From a phage, in the NCBI GenBank assembly GCA_012813795.1, contig GCA_012813795.1_4087.1: a DNA stretch of 64,000 bases; one strand, given 5' to 3'. Shown here piece after piece: positions 45,887 through 51,590 of this stretch (position 1 is the first letter of the stretch; every line of letters starts with the position of its first letter). The notes below the pieces were generated by a model. It was given only the letters and a program-made list of their open reading frames with translations. It ran no database searches and was not told where the DNA came from. A program made the translations under genes and the position numbers.

Positions 45887-46302
45887 ATAGTCCTCATTGT
45901 ACTCATAGCTTTTAGTGTTTCGTACATATGACCGTATTTGGAAAATAGCTGTAAATCAGACATTGGGTCGTTAGTACGCATCAGTGCCATGTCATCAATC
46001 ATTTCTTCAGTGCATAGTACTGCTACACTAGTGAGGGTATCGTTCAAACCTGGTTCATTGAATTTAGCAAATGGAACCTTGCCCTGTTTGGATAGATTCT
46101 CGTAATGAGTGGTTAATTTATCTTGGTTGCCAGCATTGAGAATTACAATAGTTTCGTGCTCATTATACCATTCATCGATTAGAGTACTGAATACTGTACC
46201 TTCATATTCTTTGACGAGTTTAATACCAGCATGAAATGCCTGAACGCCAGCCTGAACACCCTGACAGTACATGTTTGTTAAGCAATATAGTTTCACTTCC
46301 AT
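45883..46302 (-). CDS. hypothetical protein
   Basis: 139-aa ORF. Confidence 0.45.
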   Translation of the reverse strand: MEVKLYCLTNMYCQGVQAGVQAFHAGIKLVKEYEGTVFSTLIDEWYNEHETIVILNAGNQDKLTTHYENLSKQGKVPFAKFNEPGLNDTLTSVAVLCTEEMIDDMALMRTNDPMSDLQLFSKYGHMYETLKAMSTMRTI

Positions 46303-46520
46303 ACCTCTTGTTTTTCTACATATCCTTTACCATCACAATCTGGACATGCATAATAGCGACGAAATTCTTCATCGGGAACTTGTTGTGATCCGTTACATTT
46401 AGGACAAATGCGACGAACACCAGAAATAATACGTTCATGATGCTCAGCTTGTTTAGCTGAATCAAAAATGCGACCATCTTCAGTTTGATATTTTTCAACC
46501 TGAACATAAATTACTTTCAT
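46293..46520 (-). CDS. Small zinc-ribbon protein
   Basis: CPKCNG ... CPDCDG paired CxxC motifs. Confidence 0.45.
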   Translation of the reverse strand: MKVIYVQVEKYQTEDGRIFDSAKQAEHHERIISGVRRICPKCNGSQQVPDEEFRRYYACPDCDGKGYVEKQEVWK

Positions 46521-46813: not shown

Positions 46814-47557
46814 TTACCTCTTGAATCGACTAAATGAATATTCGTCTTTTTCTTTACGCAAATAACACATCTTACCACCTTGAGGGGTAGCAATAGTCAA
46901 ATCACCAGTAAGAAACTGACTGTCAATCCAGATACGGTTACCATAAATGAGGGGATCAAACACGGCAGTATGCCCACTAAGTACATAATCTACGTTGGTA
47001 ATACGTGATGCATTAAAGACGTTGTTGGCTTTACAGAAATCAAATGTCTTTCTGTCCCATAGGCATGACTCAATTGTATCACTGGACATTGATTTTGTCC
47101 CAGTAATGAACTTATTCCAGTCAGTGTGCTTAAGGTCTACACTTGCATGTACGAGGCCAATCTTGAGTCCTCTGTGATTGATTTGGATAATCATAGGTAG
47201 CTGGTTCAAGTACTGACGGAAGAATTCCACTCCTGATACACCAACTTCTTCCAGGAACTTATCGCCCCCATTCTGTGTCCAGCAATGATACCAGTCACGA
47301 TGAGTTGCAGAATCAACACACATCGATTCATGATTGCCCATGATCATATATCGATTCTCAGCGAATAAAAACTCAAACAAAAGGTGAGCACTTTGCTCAC
47401 CTCTGTCAATTAAATCGCCTAAACTGAATACATAATCTTCAGGAGTAATACCAAATTCTTTCTTGGTATGTTCCCATAGTTTTGCATTACCGTGAATGTC
47501 TCCTACTATATACAAATCTTTTTCATCAGGAACTGTTACTTCTAAGAAATGTTTCAT
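46814..47557 (-). CDS. Ser/Thr protein phosphatase (lambda-PPase/ApaH-like)
   Basis: GDIHGN, GDLIDRG and GNHE phosphoesterase signature motifs. Confidence 0.75.
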   Translation of the reverse strand: MKHFLEVTVPDEKDLYIVGDIHGNAKLWEHTKKEFGITPEDYVFSLGDLIDRGEQSAHLLFEFLFAENRYMIMGNHESMCVDSATHRDWYHCWTQNGGDKFLEEVGVSGVEFFRQYLNQLPMIIQINHRGLKIGLVHASVDLKHTDWNKFITGTKSMSSDTIESCLWDRKTFDFCKANNVFNASRITNVDYVLSGHTAVFDPLIYGNRIWIDSQFLTGDLTIATPQGGKMCYLRKEKDEYSFSRFKR

Positions 47558-47808
47558 TGTTCTTTAATCCATATAATTCTATCATAGGTGACAACTTGAG
47601 TATTGGCAATTTGGTCATTGACATAGCAATCTACGTAATATCGCACATCACCATGATATGTTCCCATATCTCTTATGCATATTTTTTGCCAACCTCTGGA
47701 GTGTTTAAGAAGAATTTCTTGACCAATATATTTGTGCTTAGCACGTTGGACAAAATCATCATATAACGATTGTAACATCTTTAACTGTTCAATTTCAGTC
47801 TTTGTCAT
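47554..47808 (-). CDS. Small-protein paralog family member
   Basis: 84 aa; KHKYIGQEILL motif. Confidence 0.45.
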   Translation of the reverse strand: MTKTEIEQLKMLQSLYDDFVQRAKHKYIGQEILLKHSRGWQKICIRDMGTYHGDVRYYVDCYVNDQIANTQVVTYDRIIWIKEQ

Positions 47809-48031
47809 GTTTCTTCTTCTTGAATTTTGTTAGTGTATTGTAAAAATCTTTACAGATTGAAATGAAAAGATACACCAACGACACAGGCCACAGTACTGAT
47901 AACATAGAGCAGGTACTAATATTAATCATTGTGGTATGGGTATCTTTAAAAGAACCCCAGTTGATGATAAGAAAAGTACTCAAAAATGTACTCAGTACTC
48001 CTACACCATACAAAGCAAAAAATAAAATCAT
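47795..48031 (-). CDS. Small membrane protein
   Basis: Two hydrophobic helices. Confidence 0.4.
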   Translation of the reverse strand: MILFFALYGVGVLSTFLSTFLIINWGSFKDTHTTMINISTCSMLSVLWPVSLVYLFISICKDFYNTLTKFKKKKHDKD

Positions 48032-48376
48032 TTATTCCTCTTCTATTAGTTCTAAACGATCTAAACGGTAAGTGAATCCGTACCATTCAGAACTTTTTGG
48101 ATTTTCATATTCCACATCAACATAGATTGATGAATTCTTTACTCGCAACAAAGTAATAAACATAACTGTATTTTCGTTGATATGAGAAGCTTCATCATCA
48201 CAATAAATCCAGTCAGAATCTACTTCATCCTCCTTAGCCTTATTGATGTGGTCAATATACTCTTGAGTGAATTTTACTTTTTTGCCTATTAATTTATTTT
48301 TTAAGGTACTAACGAATTCTGATTGAAGATCAAGGAGAGATTCGAAGTACCTTAGTTCAGATGATAACGGAACCAT
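48032..48376 (-). CDS. Small-protein paralog family member
   Basis: 114 aa; KNKLIGKKVKF motif. Confidence 0.45.
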   Translation of the reverse strand: MVPLSSELRYFESLLDLQSEFVSTLKNKLIGKKVKFTQEYIDHINKAKEDEVDSDWIYCDDEASHINENTVMFITLLRVKNSSIYVDVEYENPKSSEWYGFTYRLDRLELIEEE

Positions 48377-48984
48377 TAATCACAGCTTCCTGAACTTGAG
48401 CTTGAACTATCACAAGAGCCACTATCATAAGAGGAAGATGAGTCGCTATAGGATGAAGTACTGATAATTGCGGCAGTTGTTGCTGCTGTCAGTAGAACAG
48501 TGCTTGTACCATCATCAGTACTGGTAGTACTGGAAGATGCTTCCTTATCAGTTTTAGTGCTTTTGCGAGTTGTACTGGTTTTTTTGGTATTTTTAGTGCT
48601 AGTCTTGCGACCTTTTGTTTTCTTAGAAGTTTTTGCTTTTGTTTTAGTTGTTGGTGCTTTTGGTTGTGGTTCTTCTTTTACTGGAACTTCTTCCTGAACT
48701 GATTTAACTTCTTCAGCAGCACCATCAATGTAAACGTCATCAACTGTTAAAGTTGGCGTATATCCTTCAAAAACTGGTACATCATGTACTGCTTTATCAC
48801 GATTATCGTCAATGACTAGTGACATGTCACGGCGACCCATAATAATGAGTAAACCTAGTTCTAGTACTGGCGTAAAAATAATACCAAATACTGTGTATAC
48901 CAGTGCATTACGGTTGTAAGATTTTGCCAAAAACCAACCAATAACCAGACCAAGTACGTATAGTACGTATAGTGCATAAATCAT
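48376..48984 (-). CDS. Membrane-anchored protein with basic K/T-rich and Ser-rich low-complexity tail
   Basis: N-terminal transmembrane helices, then TKTKAKTSKKTKGRK ... SSSSYDSGSCDSSSSSSGSCD. Confidence 0.45.
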   Translation of the reverse strand: MIYALYVLYVLGLVIGWFLAKSYNRNALVYTVFGIIFTPVLELGLLIIMGRRDMSLVIDDNRDKAVHDVPVFEGYTPTLTVDDVYIDGAAEEVKSVQEEVPVKEEPQPKAPTTKTKAKTSKKTKGRKTSTKNTKKTSTTRKSTKTDKEASSSTTSTDDGTSTVLLTAATTAAIISTSSYSDSSSSYDSGSCDSSSSSSGSCD

Positions 48985-49280
48985 AGTATGACTCCTTTAA
49001 TTACAATTATTTTACCGATATCTTCGATATAATTAGAAAAGTGATAGTTGTCTTGGTATATCAACCACGCACCAAACCCATCTACTATTTCGATTATATT
49101 AATTTCTTCAATTGGATTATTTTTACATTCAGCAACGAACGGACAAAAATAATCATTTAAAATTTGAAGATATATTTTACTTACCTCTAACCATTCAGTT
49201 CTATTATAGTATTTGTCAAAAATAAAAGTTTCCCACAGAAGTTTATATGTTTCTTCTGCTTCATATAATGTTTTAATCAT
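48981..49280 (-). CDS. hypothetical protein
   Basis: 99-aa ORF. Confidence 0.4.
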   Translation of the reverse strand: MIKTLYEAEETYKLLWETFIFDKYYNRTEWLEVSKIYLQILNDYFCPFVAECKNNPIEEINIIEIVDGFGAWLIYQDNYHFSNYIEDIGKIIVIKGVIL

Positions 49281-49579
49281 ATACTAATAATTTCGTTAGT
49301 GGATACTACTCTTCCGTACATCAATGGGATTACGTACACATTTGGAATCGAAATCCCCACTGATTTAATTGTATCACATAGCTCATTATTTGTCCTGGCA
49401 TTTTTGAACTTTATTTCTCTACCTTCAAATGCATCAATAACAGATTGTGAATATGAATCCATTAACACCCTGAAGTTAATCATCATAGTTGGGTAGTCTA
49501 GTATCCCCTCAATTCGCATATCATGGCACGTTCTGAATAGCATAATGTATGTTTTATGACAAAGTAATAGTTCATTCAT
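49277..49579 (-). CDS. hypothetical protein
   Basis: 100-aa ORF. Confidence 0.4.
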   Translation of the reverse strand: MNELLLCHKTYIMLFRTCHDMRIEGILDYPTMMINFRVLMDSYSQSVIDAFEGREIKFKNARTNNELCDTIKSVGISIPNVYVIPLMYGRVVSTNEIISI

Positions 49580-49893
49580 ATGAAAATCTCATCCAGATAC
49601 AATGTAGTACTGGGTCTGTCTGTATTAACATCAGTACTGCAATCAATCATCAGACCGTAGTCAGTACCCCATATTTGCTTGATATAAATGTCATAATCAC
49701 GACTGGTATTTGCTTCATATACTACATTATTATAAAAAAGATCAGTCAATTCGTAATAGAAATCTTTAACAAGTTTATTCACCTCTTTTCTGTACATATC
49801 CATCTCAACGTTATCAATGTACAATAACCATTTCAGACAATAATTAAAATGATTCTCGTACATTATTAATTTATTATATTCTTCTTGTGTCAT
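49576..49893 (-). CDS. hypothetical protein, paralog of 49890-50213
   Basis: IWGTDYGLMIDC ... YLDEIFI parallels VFGTSHGIFVDY ... MYIEEIEL in the neighbour. Confidence 0.45.
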   Translation of the reverse strand: MTQEEYNKLIMYENHFNYCLKWLLYIDNVEMDMYRKEVNKLVKDFYYELTDLFYNNVVYEANTSRDYDIYIKQIWGTDYGLMIDCSTDVNTDRPSTTLYLDEIFI

Positions 49894-50213
49894 AGTTCAA
49901 TCTCTTCTATGTACATACTATTTTCTGTGTACGGATCAAATGGGTGTATTTTATAATCAACAAAGATTCCATGTGATGTACCAAAAACACCATGAATATA
50001 TACAATTTCATCTTCGCACTTAATAGTTCTGTACTTAAATCTCTTTTCCAATGATTCATATATTTCACTAATTATACAGTTAATATAGTTCTTAAACTGA
50101 CGGTTTGATTTAGTGCATTGTTCTTCAAGAAGTATATTATATATAATCAGAAAGTGTCTGTTTATATAATTCAAATAATCTAATTCACTTTTTGTTATTA
50201 AAGTGTTGCTCAT
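49890..50213 (-). CDS. hypothetical protein, paralog of 49576-49893
   Basis: 107-aa ORF, tandem paralog. Confidence 0.45.
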   Translation of the reverse strand: MSNTLITKSELDYLNYINRHFLIIYNILLEEQCTKSNRQFKNYINCIISEIYESLEKRFKYRTIKCEDEIVYIHGVFGTSHGIFVDYKIHPFDPYTENSMYIEEIEL

Positions 50214-50601
50214 ATATAATCTCTATCTCGTTTGAATCGTAATATGCTTTATGGGTTCTTGTTTTATTTTGGTATTTTATTTTGGTTTTGATAAAATATA
50301 TAACCTTTTTCCATTCATAATACACGTACTCAATTTTACCATAGTCACCAGTACTAAGTAATACTTTTTTACCTTTGTACAGTTCTTGTAATTGTGTTTT
50401 ATAATCCTCAAGAAATCTACTTTCAAAAATTTTTACATCACTTTCCATCACAAGGTCGATAAGAATAGCAAGATGCCTATCCAATAATAGTAAGTTCTCT
50501 TGATCGTATTGCATAATATCTTTGTCCATTATCAGATTTTGCCGTATACATGTATGCCCCATAAGAATATGATATGTTGGTAATTTCAACTTCTCTTCCA
50601 A
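50185..50601 (-). CDS. Small-protein paralog family member (start uncertain)
   Basis: ELYKGKKVLL motif; N-terminal part of track ORF overlaps upstream gene, true start probably internal. Confidence 0.35.
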   Translation of the reverse strand: MEEKLKLPTYHILMGHTCIRQNLIMDKDIMQYDQENLLLLDRHLAILIDLVMESDVKIFESRFLEDYKTQLQELYKGKKVLLSTGDYGKIEYVYYEWKKVIYFIKTKIKYQNKTRTHKAYYDSNEIEIIYEQHFNNKK

Positions 50602-50782
50602 GATATATAGCTTTTGTTCCTACGTATTTTTTAAGCAGTGGTGTAGTTAGTTCAAGGAGATAGGTTTCAAGGAAATCGGAAATATCATAAGATGGATAAT
50701 AATCATCCATTTGGGTATGAAAGAAACGACGTGTATCTCTTATTAATTTCACGTGCCTGTCATACAATTCTAATTTCGTCAT
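50477..50782 (-). CDS. Small-protein paralog family member (start uncertain)
   Basis: KKYVGTKAIYLGREVEI motif; track ORF begins at a TTG, so trimmed to ATG at 50782. Confidence 0.35.
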   Translation of the reverse strand: MTKLELYDRHVKLIRDTRRFFHTQMDDYYPSYDISDFLETYLLELTTPLLKKYVGTKAIYLGREVEITNISYSYGAYMYTAKSDNGQRYYAIRSRELTIIG

Positions 50783-51041
50783 ATGTTGCATCCCATAAAA
50801 AACCTGCTCGTTCGCACCTGTACAAAATATTACCATTCCATGTCGCCACTTCAATAATTGTCCAAGTTAAATCAGTATCATCTAGAACATTGACACCAAA
50901 AACCGATTTAGACAATTCGTTCTCGTAATTATCCATCAGTACTGATAATGATGTTAGTAATCTTTCATCGGATTCTGAAAAATATAAACTACGTAAAATA
51001 CGATAATGATAATAAAAAAACTTCAATGAATCATTATTCAT
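50760..51041 (-). CDS. hypothetical small protein
   Basis: 93-aa ORF. Confidence 0.4.
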   Translation of the reverse strand: MNNDSLKFFYYHYRILRSLYFSESDERLLTSLSVLMDNYENELSKSVFGVNVLDDTDLTWTIIEVATWNGNILYRCERAGFLWDATYDEIRIV

Positions 51042-51343
51042 GAAAAAATAAACCTCGAATATATTCTTGAGCGAAATGTTATATCACTTGGGATATATTT
51101 GCAACAAAGGTATGGATATCCGTAAGTACTGGATTCGATTTCGGTAATAATAACATCACTACCTCGATATTTGCACTGAACATTTGAGTATTTTTTATTC
51201 AAAAAGTCAAGATATTCATCATGGAAATAAATGAGTTGTTCTTCAAACTTGTATTGTTTTTCATTATACATTGCAAGAGATTCTTCTTTAAGAAGATATA
51301 ATGTTTTCATTAATGCTTGGAATTCATTCGTATTCATATCCAT
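51038..51343 (-). CDS. hypothetical small protein
   Basis: 101-aa ORF. Confidence 0.4.
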   Translation of the reverse strand: MDMNTNEFQALMKTLYLLKEESLAMYNEKQYKFEEQLIYFHDEYLDFLNKKYSNVQCKYRGSDVIITEIESSTYGYPYLCCKYIPSDITFRSRIYSRFIFS

Positions 51344-51590
51344 CCACTGTAGTTATTGTTGCTCGCGTTGTGAATTGGTATCTATGCCCATACATATCAA
51401 CGCCAGATACAACTATATTATTGTTAGTATCAAGATATACTGAATCAATTTTAATAATGCGTTCCCAGTCACTTGTATCATAGACACATTTAACATATGT
51501 ATCTTTATATTTTTCTGATAGTTGCTTTACTAAATTTTTCAGTACTTGAATATGTGAATTAACAAATTGGAAATCTATATTAATATTCAT
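51324..51590 (-). CDS. hypothetical small protein
   Basis: 88-aa ORF. Confidence 0.4.
   Translation of the reverse strand: MNINIDFQFVNSHIQVLKNLVKQLSEKYKDTYVKCVYDTSDWERIIKIDSVYLDTNNNIVVSGVDMYGHRYQFTTRATITTVDGYEYE

What the first reader, a model, noticed from the sequence alone, without database searches (positions are those of the whole stretch)
48376..48984. Membrane-anchored protein with an extreme low-complexity tail
The 202-aa ORF has two N-terminal transmembrane helices, then a lysine/threonine-rich basic stretch (TKTKAKTSKKTKGRKTSTKNTKKTSTTRKSTKTDK) and a serine-rich tail ending in repeated SGSCD. The underlying DNA is repetitive and also yields a long plus-strand ORF (48500-48697), so the coding strand should be verified. 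If real, this is an unusual surface-exposed or intrinsically disordered membrane protein.
Basis: seen in the sequence. Interest (0 to 1): 0.35.

Follow-up and report, generated by a model that had tools for sequence, protein, structure and literature searches.

The report
Membrane-tethered disordered jumbo-phage protein
This is a real, conserved gene of a giant E. coli phage that encodes a protein anchored in the cell membrane by two helices and trailing a long floppy tail; the tail ends in a conserved cysteine-aspartate motif that also occurs on unrelated proteins of other enterobacterial phages, and its function is still unknown.

Summary
The 202-aa minus-strand ORF (48376..48984) is a genuine gene of an Asteriusvirus jumbo coliphage, 97.9% identical to phage A4 (gene A4_442, phrog_29057). 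Codon usage, dN/dS of 0.2-0.3 (tail 0.10-0.25), in-frame indels and orthologs at about 40% identity all support the minus frame. The plus-strand ORF is an antisense artefact, and the DNA is not a repeat. The protein has a two-helix membrane hairpin followed by about 150 residues predicted to be disordered: an acidic linker, a Lys/Thr-rich basic block, a short hydrophobic patch and a Ser/Tyr/Asp tail ending SYDSGSCDSSSSSSGSCD. Both ends are portable modules. The hairpin occurs in about 270 protein clusters, a third of them with zinc ribbons. The tail matches the C-terminal half of Pfam DUF7206 from rV5-like phages (hhalign 97.6%; score 52 versus 12±3 for shuffles), where 49 of 50 proteins end in [S/G]CD with two cysteines. 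The phAPEC6 ortholog is absent from the virion proteome. My best reading is an inner-membrane-tethered protein with a cytoplasmic tail whose C-terminal Cys-Asp motif docks a partner or a metal. The function is not established. Interest is moderate.

The parts
48376..48984 (-). Complete CDS (202 aa plus a TAA stop at 48376-48378). It is the ortholog of A4_442, PBECO4 gp117 and phAPEC6 gp366c, and belongs to PHROG 29057.
48992..48998 (-). Shine-Dalgarno sequence AAAGGAG, 7 nt upstream of the ATG. The ATG overlaps the stop of the upstream gene (ATGA), and the stop overlaps the start of the downstream gene (TAATG), which suggests translational coupling within a long minus-strand operon.
   Evidence: read directly
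48919..48981 (-). TM helix 1 (residues 2-22).
48835..48906 (-). TM helix 2 (residues 27-50). Together with TM1 and the N-R-N/S loop (R25 invariant) it forms the portable hairpin module (phrog_9201).
48655..48825 (-). Acidic, Val/Glu/Pro-rich disordered linker (residues 54-110). It is the most variable segment and carries the in-frame indels relative to A4.
48541..48654 (-). Basic Lys/Thr-rich block (residues 111-148; net charge about +9 to +12). The K..KK...TKGK core is conserved.
48463..48498 (-). Short hydrophobic patch of small residues, VLLTAATTAAII (residues 163-174; T166, A167, A168 and A172 are conserved). It is too weak to act as an autonomous TM segment (Hessa sum +4.2 kcal/mol).
48379..48432 (-). 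Conserved C-terminal motif SYDSGSCDSSSSSSGSCD-COOH (residues 185-202). There are always two Cys, and the protein always ends in CD. It aligns with the C-terminus of DUF7206.
48500..48697 (+). Antisense 65-codon ORF (GTG start). It is not a gene; it is a by-product of the Lys/Thr/Ser codon composition on the coding strand.

Best explanation
This is a bona fide, non-virion gene of an Asteriusvirus jumbo phage. It encodes a two-module, membrane-tethered intrinsically disordered protein. Shown: an N-terminal helical hairpin (a widespread, portable 2-TM anchor) is followed by about 150 residues predicted to be disordered and net-neutral, arranged as an acidic linker, a Lys/Thr basic block, a short hydrophobic patch and a Ser/Tyr/Asp tail ending ...SYDSGSCD-S6-GSCD-COOH. 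The last ~55 residues form a conserved module that is also found at the C-terminus of DUF7206 proteins of rV5-like (Vequintavirinae) phages, which carry a different N-terminus that looks like an amphipathic helix. Inferred: the hairpin inserts N-in/C-in, so the tail lies on the cytoplasmic face of the inner membrane (about 70% likely). The basic block holds the tail near anionic lipid or nucleic acid. The strictly C-terminal Cys-Asp...Cys-Asp motif acts as a short linear docking site, through its two thiol-plus-carboxylate pairs, for a metal ion or for a host or phage partner found in Enterobacteriaceae. The protein would then work as a membrane-localised tether or decoy during the non-structural phase of infection, in host take-over or exclusion. 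The partner and the phenotype are unknown.
For: Real gene: codon score; dN/dS 0.20-0.33 overall and 0.10-0.25 in the tail at unsaturated distances; indels of 3, 9 and 9 nt relative to A4; orthologs at about 40% identity with the same layout; a strong Shine-Dalgarno sequence and coupled start/stop codons; conserved synteny Rnl1 - PNK - small-gene array - this gene - lambda-type phosphatase - DNA ligase - ClpP, extending to Klebsiella phage RCIP0023 and metagenomic relatives. Architecture: AlphaFold2 helices 2-22 and 27-50, with residues 53-202 below pLDDT 50; tail net charge per residue of -0.04 to +0.01 in all 7 relatives, with charge segregation z = 2.2-3.4 in 4 of 7. Hairpin as a module: about 270 clusters match profile positions ~5-53 only; 13 are stand-alone and 51 of 152 carry a CxxC..CxxC zinc ribbon after TM2; RB49p211 is another example. 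Tail as a module: hhalign of A3 against DUF7206 gives 97.6% probability, E = 3e-12, 53 columns, in register to the C-terminus; the tail-only score is 52.1 against 12.4±2.6 (maximum 19) for 40 column shuffles and 18.7 when reversed; 49 of 50 DUF7206 proteins end in [SG]CD, and 47 of 50 have exactly two Cys in the last 35 residues, spaced 6-10 apart. Cytoplasmic orientation: the zinc-ribbon fusions; K+R higher in the C-flank than in the loop in 100 of 152 proteins and lower in 20; DUF7206 proteins have no TM segment or signal-like h-region, but an N-terminal helix with muH 0.45-0.66. Non-structural: phAPEC6 gp366c is absent from the 62-protein virion MS list (PMC7247149). A metal-binding hint: the Cys-less relative P0012 has a His-rich tail instead.
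Against: There is no experimental or homology-based function: Pfam, NCBIfam, PADLOC, PDB and the literature gave nothing. Topology is not decisive. The TM1-TM2 loop carries an invariant Arg, about 2 K/R per 8 residues and almost no acidic residues, and many hairpin homologs start with 'ME', a feature of translocated N-tails. The Pro/Glu-then-Lys linker resembles the periplasmic spacer of TonB (12.5 bits only). Two conserved Cys would also fit a periplasmic disulfide. The window protein itself scores below the Pfam threshold for DUF7206 (13.1 against 25.6 bits). Expression timing is inferred from gene neighbourhood only (searches found no data). Absence from a virion MS list is weak evidence for a Lys-rich membrane protein.
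Confidence: 0.5

Rival explanations
1. A periplasm-spanning envelope tether with N-out/C-out topology. The hairpin loop stays in the cytoplasm, and the acidic-then-basic linker extends across the periplasm as in TonB or TolA. The two Cys form a disulfide loop, and the Ser-rich end contacts peptidoglycan or an outer-membrane component, for example to exclude superinfecting phage or to modulate lysis.
For: The loop has an invariant Arg, about 2 K/R per 8 residues and almost no acidic residues, and many homologs begin with 'ME'. The JNE01/Turkey5-type linkers are Pro/Glu/Val-rich and followed by a Lys block, as in TonB, with a weak TonB NCBIfam hit over that block. Exactly two Cys are conserved.
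Against: 51 of 152 hairpin homologs carry a zinc ribbon directly after TM2, and K+R in the C-flank exceeds the loop in 100 and is lower in 20. The same tail sits on DUF7206 proteins that have no signal peptide or TM segment. Exporting a block with 17-24 Lys/Arg is unfavourable. The TonB hit is 12.5 bits against a cutoff of 315, and no TonB C-terminal domain is present. The Pro-rich character is absent from the window protein and from RCIP0023.
Confidence: 0.22
2. A lysis-cassette component (holin, antiholin or i-spanin analogue): a small membrane protein with a charged C-terminal domain, located a few kb from the pseT (PNK) homolog, as the T4 spanins pseT.2 and pseT.3 are.
For: It has two TM helices plus a highly charged hydrophilic C-terminal region. 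It lies about 3 kb downstream of PNK on the same strand. The T4 analogy is from my own knowledge.
Against: No endolysin is annotated or detected among the neighbours, and no adjacent ORF has a lipobox that could serve as an o-spanin partner. i-Spanins have one TM segment and a coiled-coil periplasmic domain, whereas this tail is predicted to be disordered. The tail module also occurs on non-TM proteins. At 202 aa with a 150-aa disordered region it is atypical for holins.
Confidence: 0.05
3. A post-translationally modified Ser/Gly/Cys tail, acting as a substrate module. Options are azole heterocycles at G-S-C sites as in microcin B17, siderophore attachment as in class IIb microcins, or Ser/Thr/Tyr phosphorylation reversed by the lambda-type phosphatase encoded 0-5 genes downstream.
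For: The motifs SGSCD, GGCD and GSCD have Gly one or two residues before Cys. The tail holds 56 Ser+Thr out of 202 residues. Gene linkage to a Metallophos/NinI-like phosphatase is conserved, and the two genes are adjacent in RCIP0023. The microcin parallels are from my own knowledge.
Against: No leader peptide, cyclodehydratase (YcaO/McbBCD), kinase or siderophore-transfer gene was seen in the regions examined. The linkage to the phosphatase is part of a wholly collinear region, so it is not independent evidence. rV5-like DUF7206 loci have no phosphatase nearby.
Confidence: 0.05
4. Not a gene: a non-coding simple repeat, or a spurious ORF created by biased composition.
For: Extreme low complexity, and a long antisense ORF.
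Against: Codon statistics favour only this frame, in every sub-segment. There is purifying selection and all indels are in frame. There are no tandem repeats. Full-length orthologs exist across two jumbo-phage genera.
Confidence: 0.01

Closest known systems
PHROG phrog_29057 and its annotated orthologs: Escherichia phage A4 A4_442 (USL83518.1), PBECO4 gp117 (YP_009150431.1), phAPEC6 gp366c (QDF13990.1), and the Klebsiella phage RCIP0023 homolog
   Same: Full-length match (E = 8e-19), the same module order, the same genomic position, and the same C-terminal ...SYDS.SCD...SCD.
   Different: Nothing essential differs; identity is 98% to A4 and about 40% to the others. All are annotated as 'hypothetical protein' and none has been studied.
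Pfam DUF7206 (PF23836; phrog_17348), e.g. Cronobacter phage GAP31_237, Escherichia phage 4MG gp033 and a Salmonella phage SPLA5a protein
   Same: The C-terminal ~55 residues share the order basic, acidic, short hydrophobic patch, Ser(/His)-rich, SY.SGSCD-(S/G)n-[SG]CD-COOH. hhalign gives 97.6% probability, and the score is far above shuffled controls.
   Different: The N-terminus is an amphipathic-looking M.KFFKWL helix plus a long central helix instead of a 2-TM hairpin. The host phages are about 148-kb Vequintavirinae. The window protein is below the Pfam gathering threshold. The function of DUF7206 is also unknown.
Small 2-TM hairpin proteins: phrog_9201, phrog_25625 (RB49p211, NP_891782.1), and bacterial or phage hairpin-plus-zinc-ribbon (UPF0547) or hairpin-plus-SHOCT proteins
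   Same: The N-terminal anchor with the motif WA..(N/G)R(S/N)..GY.LLSL..SP(L/I/V)....LL..G.
   Different: The C-terminal parts are completely different. Only 9 of the 152 hairpin-bearing relatives examined carry the Ser-rich tail (8 of them ending in CD), and all 9 are members of this same family.
TonB, TolA and ZipA-type membrane-tethered proteins with charged disordered spacers
   Same: An N-terminal membrane anchor followed by an acidic-then-basic low-complexity spacer, with a weak compositional hit to the TonB spacer. This is an analogy of design only.
   Different: There are two TM helices rather than one, there is no globular C-terminal domain, and the score is 12.5 bits against a cutoff of 315. 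The likely topology is the opposite one.
T4 Imm and other small phage inner-membrane exclusion or take-over proteins
   Same: A small, non-virion, 2-TM phage protein encoded among non-structural genes (analogy from my own knowledge).
   Different: There is no sequence relationship: no Pfam Imm_superinfect hit or any other. Imm lacks a long disordered tail.

Membership tests
PHROG phrog_29057 (Asteriusvirus/Alcyoneusvirus hairpin-plus-tail proteins) | Full-length profile match | tested here: met
   E = 8e-19, residues 7-202 against profile positions 9-209 of 209
PHROG phrog_29057 (Asteriusvirus/Alcyoneusvirus hairpin-plus-tail proteins) | Conserved position between PNK and the lambda-type Ser/Thr phosphatase | tested here: met
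   The same order is seen in A4, JNE01, PBECO4, Turkey5, CMSTMSU, phAPEC6, RCIP0023 and two metagenomic contigs
Pfam DUF7206 (PF23836) | Score at or above the gathering threshold (25.6 bits) | tested here: not met
   The window protein scores 13.1 bits and its relatives 18.7-20.7 bits. The true member P0123 scores 28.6 bits.
Pfam DUF7206 (PF23836) | N-terminal M.KFFKWL amphipathic helix and a long central helix | tested here: not met
   The target has a 2-TM hairpin instead
Pfam DUF7206 (PF23836) | C-terminal module ending SY.SGSCD...[SG]CD-COOH with two Cys | tested here: met
   hhalign 97.6% probability, E = 3e-12. The tail-only score is 52.1 against 12.4±2.6 for shuffled columns.
2-TM hairpin module (phrog_9201) | Profile match over both helices and the conserved Arg loop | tested here: met
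   phrog_9201 E = 1.3e-6 over residues 6-52. About 270 representative clusters match profile positions ~5-53.
TonB | NCBIfam equivalog score, a single N-terminal TM segment and the C-terminal TonB domain | tested here: not met
   12.5 bits against a cutoff of 315, matching only the Lys-rich spacer. There is no C-terminal domain.
Holin / spanin lysis proteins | Adjacency to an endolysin; for spanins, a partner lipoprotein ORF with a lipobox | tested here: not met
   No neighbour within about 3 kb has a lipobox or a lysozyme-type hit. Holins have no universal sequence signature, so this does not exclude holin-like activity.
T4 Imm-type superinfection immunity (Pfam Imm_superinfect) | Pfam profile match | tested here: not met
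   No hit even at E <= 10
Virion structural protein | Detection in purified particles by MS | tested here: not met
   phAPEC6 gp366c is not among the 62 virion proteins (PMC7247149). The caveat is poor detectability of this sequence type.
Microcin-like RiPP precursor (MccB17 / class IIb) | A leader peptide plus a cognate modification enzyme encoded by the phage or the host | not tested
   Only the 64-kb window and 99 kb of A4 were scanned for the tail and the hairpin, not for enzymes. The resemblance is recalled from memory.
Anti-phage defence / PADLOC families | Profile match | tested here: not met
   No hits for the target or its orthologs

The most novel reading that the evidence does not exclude
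The C-terminal 'CD-tail' is a previously unrecognised portable effector or targeting module of phages that infect Enterobacteriaceae. Its layout is basic, acidic, short hydrophobic patch, Ser-rich, SY.SGSCD-(S/G)6-10-[SG]CD-COOH. It is delivered to the inner face of the cytoplasmic membrane by at least two unrelated anchors: a 2-TM hairpin in 350-kb jumbo phages and an amphipathic helix in 148-kb rV5-like phages. There it binds a metal or a conserved host membrane-associated protein. If so, these proteins would define a new class of membrane-tethered disordered phage effectors.
Probability: 0.3. Interest if true: 0.55.

Novelty: new variant of a known kind. Interest (0 to 1): 0.38.

Why it matters
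Jumbo phages encode hundreds of 'hypothetical' proteins, and this one stands out by composition. The analysis shows that it is a genuine gene under selection rather than a junk ORF. Its strange tail is an ordered, conserved module shared with an independent protein family (DUF7206) in a different phage lineage, in both cases on a protein with an apparent membrane-targeting N-terminus. Two different anchors carrying the same strictly C-terminal Cys-Asp motif is the pattern expected of a functional docking or metal-binding peptide acting at the host inner membrane. It gives a concrete handle of 18 residues and two cysteines for finding the host or phage partner. The practical value is modest until a phenotype is found.

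Tried and rejected
(1) Non-coding repeat or wrong strand: rejected by codon statistics, dN/dS, in-frame indels, TRF and the non-conservation of the antisense ORF.
(2) A third TM helix at residues 159-177: rejected as an autonomous TM segment (Hessa sum +4.2 to +6.9 kcal/mol; no helix in AlphaFold2).
(3) Annotated domains: Pfam, NCBIfam, PADLOC and PDB gave only sub-threshold compositional hits such as TonB, GAGA_bind, PAP1 and the N-terminal region of cardiolipin synthase.
(4) A tail-only profile search of 5.8 billion proteins gave no hit at E <= 0.01, because the profile is short and compositionally biased.
(6) An IMG/VR scan with the family alignment returned only phage 121Q.
(7) Literature: nothing on DUF7206, and no transcript-timing data for this region in the 121Q/RaK2/PA5oct clade.
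(8) Other copies of the tail or the hairpin in the same phage: none in the 64-kb window or in the first 99 kb of A4. The remaining ~256 kb was not scanned.
(9) Paralogy of the surrounding small genes: only one weak pair (E = 5e-4).
(10) Fold search was not run, because both models are mostly below pLDDT 50.
Full report
ORIGIN OF THE WINDOW. The region 46-52 kb is 97.9% identical over its full length to Escherichia phage A4 (ON286972.1, 355.5 kb, genus Asteriusvirus). It is more distantly related to PBECO4, 121Q, phAPEC6 and similar phages. The exact protein is recorded at NCBI as 'hypothetical protein ABV23_RS02465 [Escherichia coli]' on a 357,761-bp contig. So the window comes from a complete jumbo-phage genome deposited inside an E. 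coli assembly. That phenomenon has been described for 189 Asteriusvirus genomes (PMC12768965).

CHECK OF THE OBSERVATION. It is preceded by AAAGGAG 7 nt upstream of the ATG. Its ATG overlaps the stop of the upstream gene (ATGA), and its TAA overlaps the start of the downstream gene (TAATG). It therefore sits in a tightly coupled minus-strand array. A codon-usage log-likelihood trained on 42 long ORFs of the window gives +0.36 bits per codon for this frame, against 0.285±0.06 for the training genes, and negative values for the other five frames. Each of four sub-segments (TM region, linker, basic block, tail) is positive only, or most strongly, in this frame. Relative to A4 there are six substitutions and three indels of 3, 9 and 9 nt, all in frame. 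Nei-Gojobori dN/dS is 0.25 (JNE01 versus Turkey5) and 0.28 (PBECO4 versus CMSTMSU) overall, and 0.11 and 0.25 in the tail. The plus-strand ORF 48500..48697 exists but scores negative. The longest antisense open stretch varies between 55 and 147 codons among orthologs, so it is a by-product of AAA/ACN/AGY/TCN-rich coding sequence. The claim that the DNA is repetitive does not hold. TRF finds three trivial 19-27-nt items, the repeat finder finds one 13-nt pair, and the 29 Ser codons are spread evenly over five codons. The low complexity is real at the protein level: the minimum 30-aa Shannon entropy is 2.06 bits, the lowest of 100 ORFs of at least 80 aa in the window (next lowest 2.92, median 3.28).

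ANATOMY. Hydropathy and AlphaFold2 agree on two helices, residues 2-22 and 27-50 (pLDDT 61-72), joined by a tight loop with an invariant Arg25. Residues 53-202 are below pLDDT 50 with no secondary structure. Orthologs at only about 40% identity (JNE01, Turkey5, PBECO4, CMSTMSU), Klebsiella phage RCIP0023 at 33-35%, and two metagenomic relatives (P0008, P0012) all keep the same order. That order is: hairpin; an acidic Val/Glu/Pro linker; a Lys-rich block with the core K..KK...TKGK; a short patch of small hydrophobic residues (TAA..AA); and a Ser/Tyr/Asp tail ending SYDS[GS]SCD-(S)5-7-(G)SCD. The patch has a Hessa sum of +4.2 to +6.9 kcal/mol, so it is not an autonomous TM segment. The disordered part is net-neutral in all seven relatives (net charge per residue -0.04 to +0.01). 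Its charges are more segregated than in shuffles in four of seven (z = 2.2-3.4; 0.9-1.6 in the others). There are always two Cys in the tail, except in P0012, whose tail lacks Cys and is instead His-rich.

TWO PORTABLE MODULES. A profile of the family searched against 1.84 billion representative proteins found about 270 relatives at E <= 1e-3, and nearly all match only profile positions ~5-53. This hairpin (phrog_9201) occurs alone in proteins of 48-60 aa. It also occurs fused to UPF0547-type zinc ribbons, SHOCT domains or other C-terminal parts. In RB49-like T4-type phages it heads a 114-aa protein, RB49p211 (phrog_25625), which is encoded two genes from the DNA ligase gene, next to an HNH endonuclease gene. 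One hit, P0123, matched only the tail. It is a true member of Pfam DUF7206 (28.6 bits against a cutoff of 25.6) and lacks the hairpin. DUF7206 comprises about 50 clusters, almost all on 147-150-kb Vequintavirinae-type contigs (GAP31_237, 4MG gp033, SPLA5a, KE23), and all are 'hypothetical'. In that family 49 of 50 proteins end in [S/G]CD, and 47 of 50 have exactly two Cys in the last 35 residues, spaced 6-10 apart. The order RRR, DDD, hydrophobic patch, Ser/His-rich, (DDGG)SYSSGSCDSGSSSGGCD mirrors the target. Profile-profile alignment of the two families gives 97.6% probability (E = 3e-12) over 53 columns, in register to the C-terminus. With the tail alone the score is 52.1, against 12.4±2.6 (maximum 19.0) for 40 column-shuffled controls and 18.7 for the reversed tail. 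The similarity is therefore an ordered motif and not composition alone. The window protein itself is below the DUF7206 gathering threshold (13.1 bits) and lacks the DUF7206 N-terminal part. I therefore describe it as sharing a module with DUF7206, not as a member.

CONTEXT. The gene order is conserved from Asteriusvirus to Klebsiella phage RCIP0023 and to metagenomic relatives. It runs: Rnl1-type RNA ligase; PNK; an array of roughly 10-25 small genes; this gene; 0-5 small genes; a lambda/NinI-type Ser/Thr phosphatase (Metallophos, phrog_246); a DnaJ-type zinc-finger protein; DNA ligase; ClpP. Because the whole region is collinear, the linkage to the phosphatase is not independent evidence of a functional tie. 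The neighbours are non-structural nucleic-acid repair and metabolism genes. The phAPEC6 ortholog gp366c is not among the 62 virion proteins detected by MS. No transcript-timing data exist for this region. Related PA5oct relies on host RNA polymerase. The promoter scan is not above the shuffle expectation.

TOPOLOGY (INFERENCE). Three indirect lines favour an N-in/C-in arrangement with a cytoplasmic tail.
(a) 51 of 152 hairpin homologs carry a CxxC...CxxC zinc ribbon within 70 residues after TM2, a domain type normally cytoplasmic.
(b) K+R in the 15-residue C-flank exceeds that in the loop in 100 proteins and is lower in 20.
(c) DUF7206 proteins carry the same tail but have no TM segment or signal-like h-region. 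Their N-terminus is predicted as a helix (residues 2-13) with a high hydrophobic moment (0.45-0.66, against 0.14 for a TM helix), typical of peripheral binding to the cytoplasmic face.
Against this, the loop is short, holds about 2 K/R per 8 residues including the invariant Arg, and has almost no acidic residues. Many homologs also start with 'ME'. I put the cytoplasmic orientation at about 70%.

MECHANISM. Shown: a genuine gene under selection that encodes a membrane-anchored protein predicted to be mostly disordered and built from two portable modules. Inferred: the hairpin fixes the protein in the inner membrane, and the net-neutral, charge-blocked spacer projects the C-terminal module along the cytoplasmic face. 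The Lys/Thr block can associate with anionic lipid or nucleic acid. The strictly terminal Cys-Asp...Cys-Asp motif acts as a short docking peptide for a metal ion or a partner protein. Three observations point to a specific partner conserved in Enterobacteriaceae: the motif is always at the very C-terminus, it is preserved on two different membrane-targeting scaffolds, and it was found only in phages of E. coli, Salmonella, Klebsiella, Cronobacter and Enterobacter. The His-rich, Cys-less variant P0012 hints at metal binding. Which process is affected (host take-over, exclusion, division or membrane proteostasis) cannot be decided from sequence.

RIVALS. A periplasmic, TonB-like tether with a disulfide loop remains possible (about 0.2). 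A lysis role (holin or spanin) is unlikely. There is no endolysin or lipobox partner nearby, the tail is predicted to be disordered rather than coiled-coil, and the tail also occurs on non-TM proteins. A post-translationally modified, microcin-like or phospho-regulated tail is a speculative reading based on recalled resemblances, and no modifying enzyme was seen. The 'not a gene' reading is refuted.

NOVELTY AND SCORE. The gene is already catalogued as a hypothetical protein and as phrog_29057, and its two modules exist in databases without function. What this analysis adds is the modular dissection, the statistically controlled link between the tail and DUF7206, and the pattern of one tail on two anchors. 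A specialist would find this mildly interesting rather than surprising. It offers an easily testable 18-residue motif but no phenotype. Interest is 0.38, and the novelty class is a new variant (a new architecture) of known but uncharacterised kinds.

Noticed in passing
whole window (protein P0001; NCBI contig of 357,761 bp): The window is a lytic Asteriusvirus jumbo-phage genome deposited as part of an E. coli assembly (locus tag ABV23_RS02465). This matches the 'bacterial assembly-associated phage sequences' described for 189 Asteriusvirus genomes.
   Followed up: partly
window 48981-51590 (-), continuing to about 51.85 kb: An array of about ten tightly packed ORFs of 88-138 aa with overlapping start and stop codons lies between PNK and the target gene. 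Only one pair shows weak paralogy (49576-49893 versus 49890-50213, E = 5e-4). Relatives have 10-25 such genes at the same place.
   Followed up: partly
window 48655-48825 and 48500-48540 (-): All three length differences from phage A4 inside the target gene are in-frame indels (3, 9 and 9 nt) within the disordered region, for example QEEV versus QEEVEEV and SSSTTSTDD versus SSSTDD. The disordered linker is plastic in length while the termini stay fixed.
   Followed up: yes
window 54339-54312 (-) and 52387-52359 (-): A perfect sigma-70 consensus (TTGACA-16-TATAAT, 12 of 12) and an 11-of-12 match both lie inside ORFs, namely the RNA ligase and PNK genes as judged from A4 coordinates. The total count of promoter-like sites is not above the shuffle expectation.
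   Followed up: no
window 51898-51875 (-): A terminator-like hairpin (10-bp stem followed by a T-run) lies at the 3' end of the PNK gene, just upstream of the small-gene array that leads to the target.
   Followed up: no
window 46293-46520 (-) and 46814-47557 (-): A 75-aa ORF with CxxC motifs (A4 annotates the ortholog as a putative DnaJ-like chaperone; the L016 counterpart has faint DnaJ_CXXCXGXG and weak Anti-TRAP Pfam hits) and a lambda NinI-type Ser/Thr phosphatase (Metallophos, E = 2e-14; phrog_246, E = 1e-64) lie just downstream of the target. The same trio recurs in all relatives.
   Followed up: partly
window 47795-48031 (-): Two genes downstream of the target is a very hydrophobic 78-aa ORF, probably a small membrane protein. 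It has no Pfam or PHROG family hit.
   Followed up: no
L007:3983-4327 (phage RB49, RB49p211): In RB49-like T4-type phages the same 2-TM hairpin heads a 114-aa protein with a helical C-terminal part. Its gene lies next to an HNH endonuclease gene and two genes from the DNA ligase gene (gp30), so hairpin genes lie close to a ligase gene in two very different phage groups.
   Followed up: no
P0012 (L017:8001-8600, 77.9-kb metagenomic contig): A syntenic relative has lost both cysteines. Its tail is His-rich instead (…GGHSGHSVSHSRHDDSSSYHHSHSSDHSSSYDSGSSYSSSSSD), which fits a metal-binding role for the tail.
   Followed up: partly
L011:1490-2059 (Cronobacter phage GAP31_241): A DUF1190-annotated protein with an N-terminus that looks like a lipoprotein signal and a Ser/Gly-rich C-terminus lies about 1 kb upstream of the DUF7206 gene in GAP31. 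The relationship, if any, is unknown.
   Followed up: no
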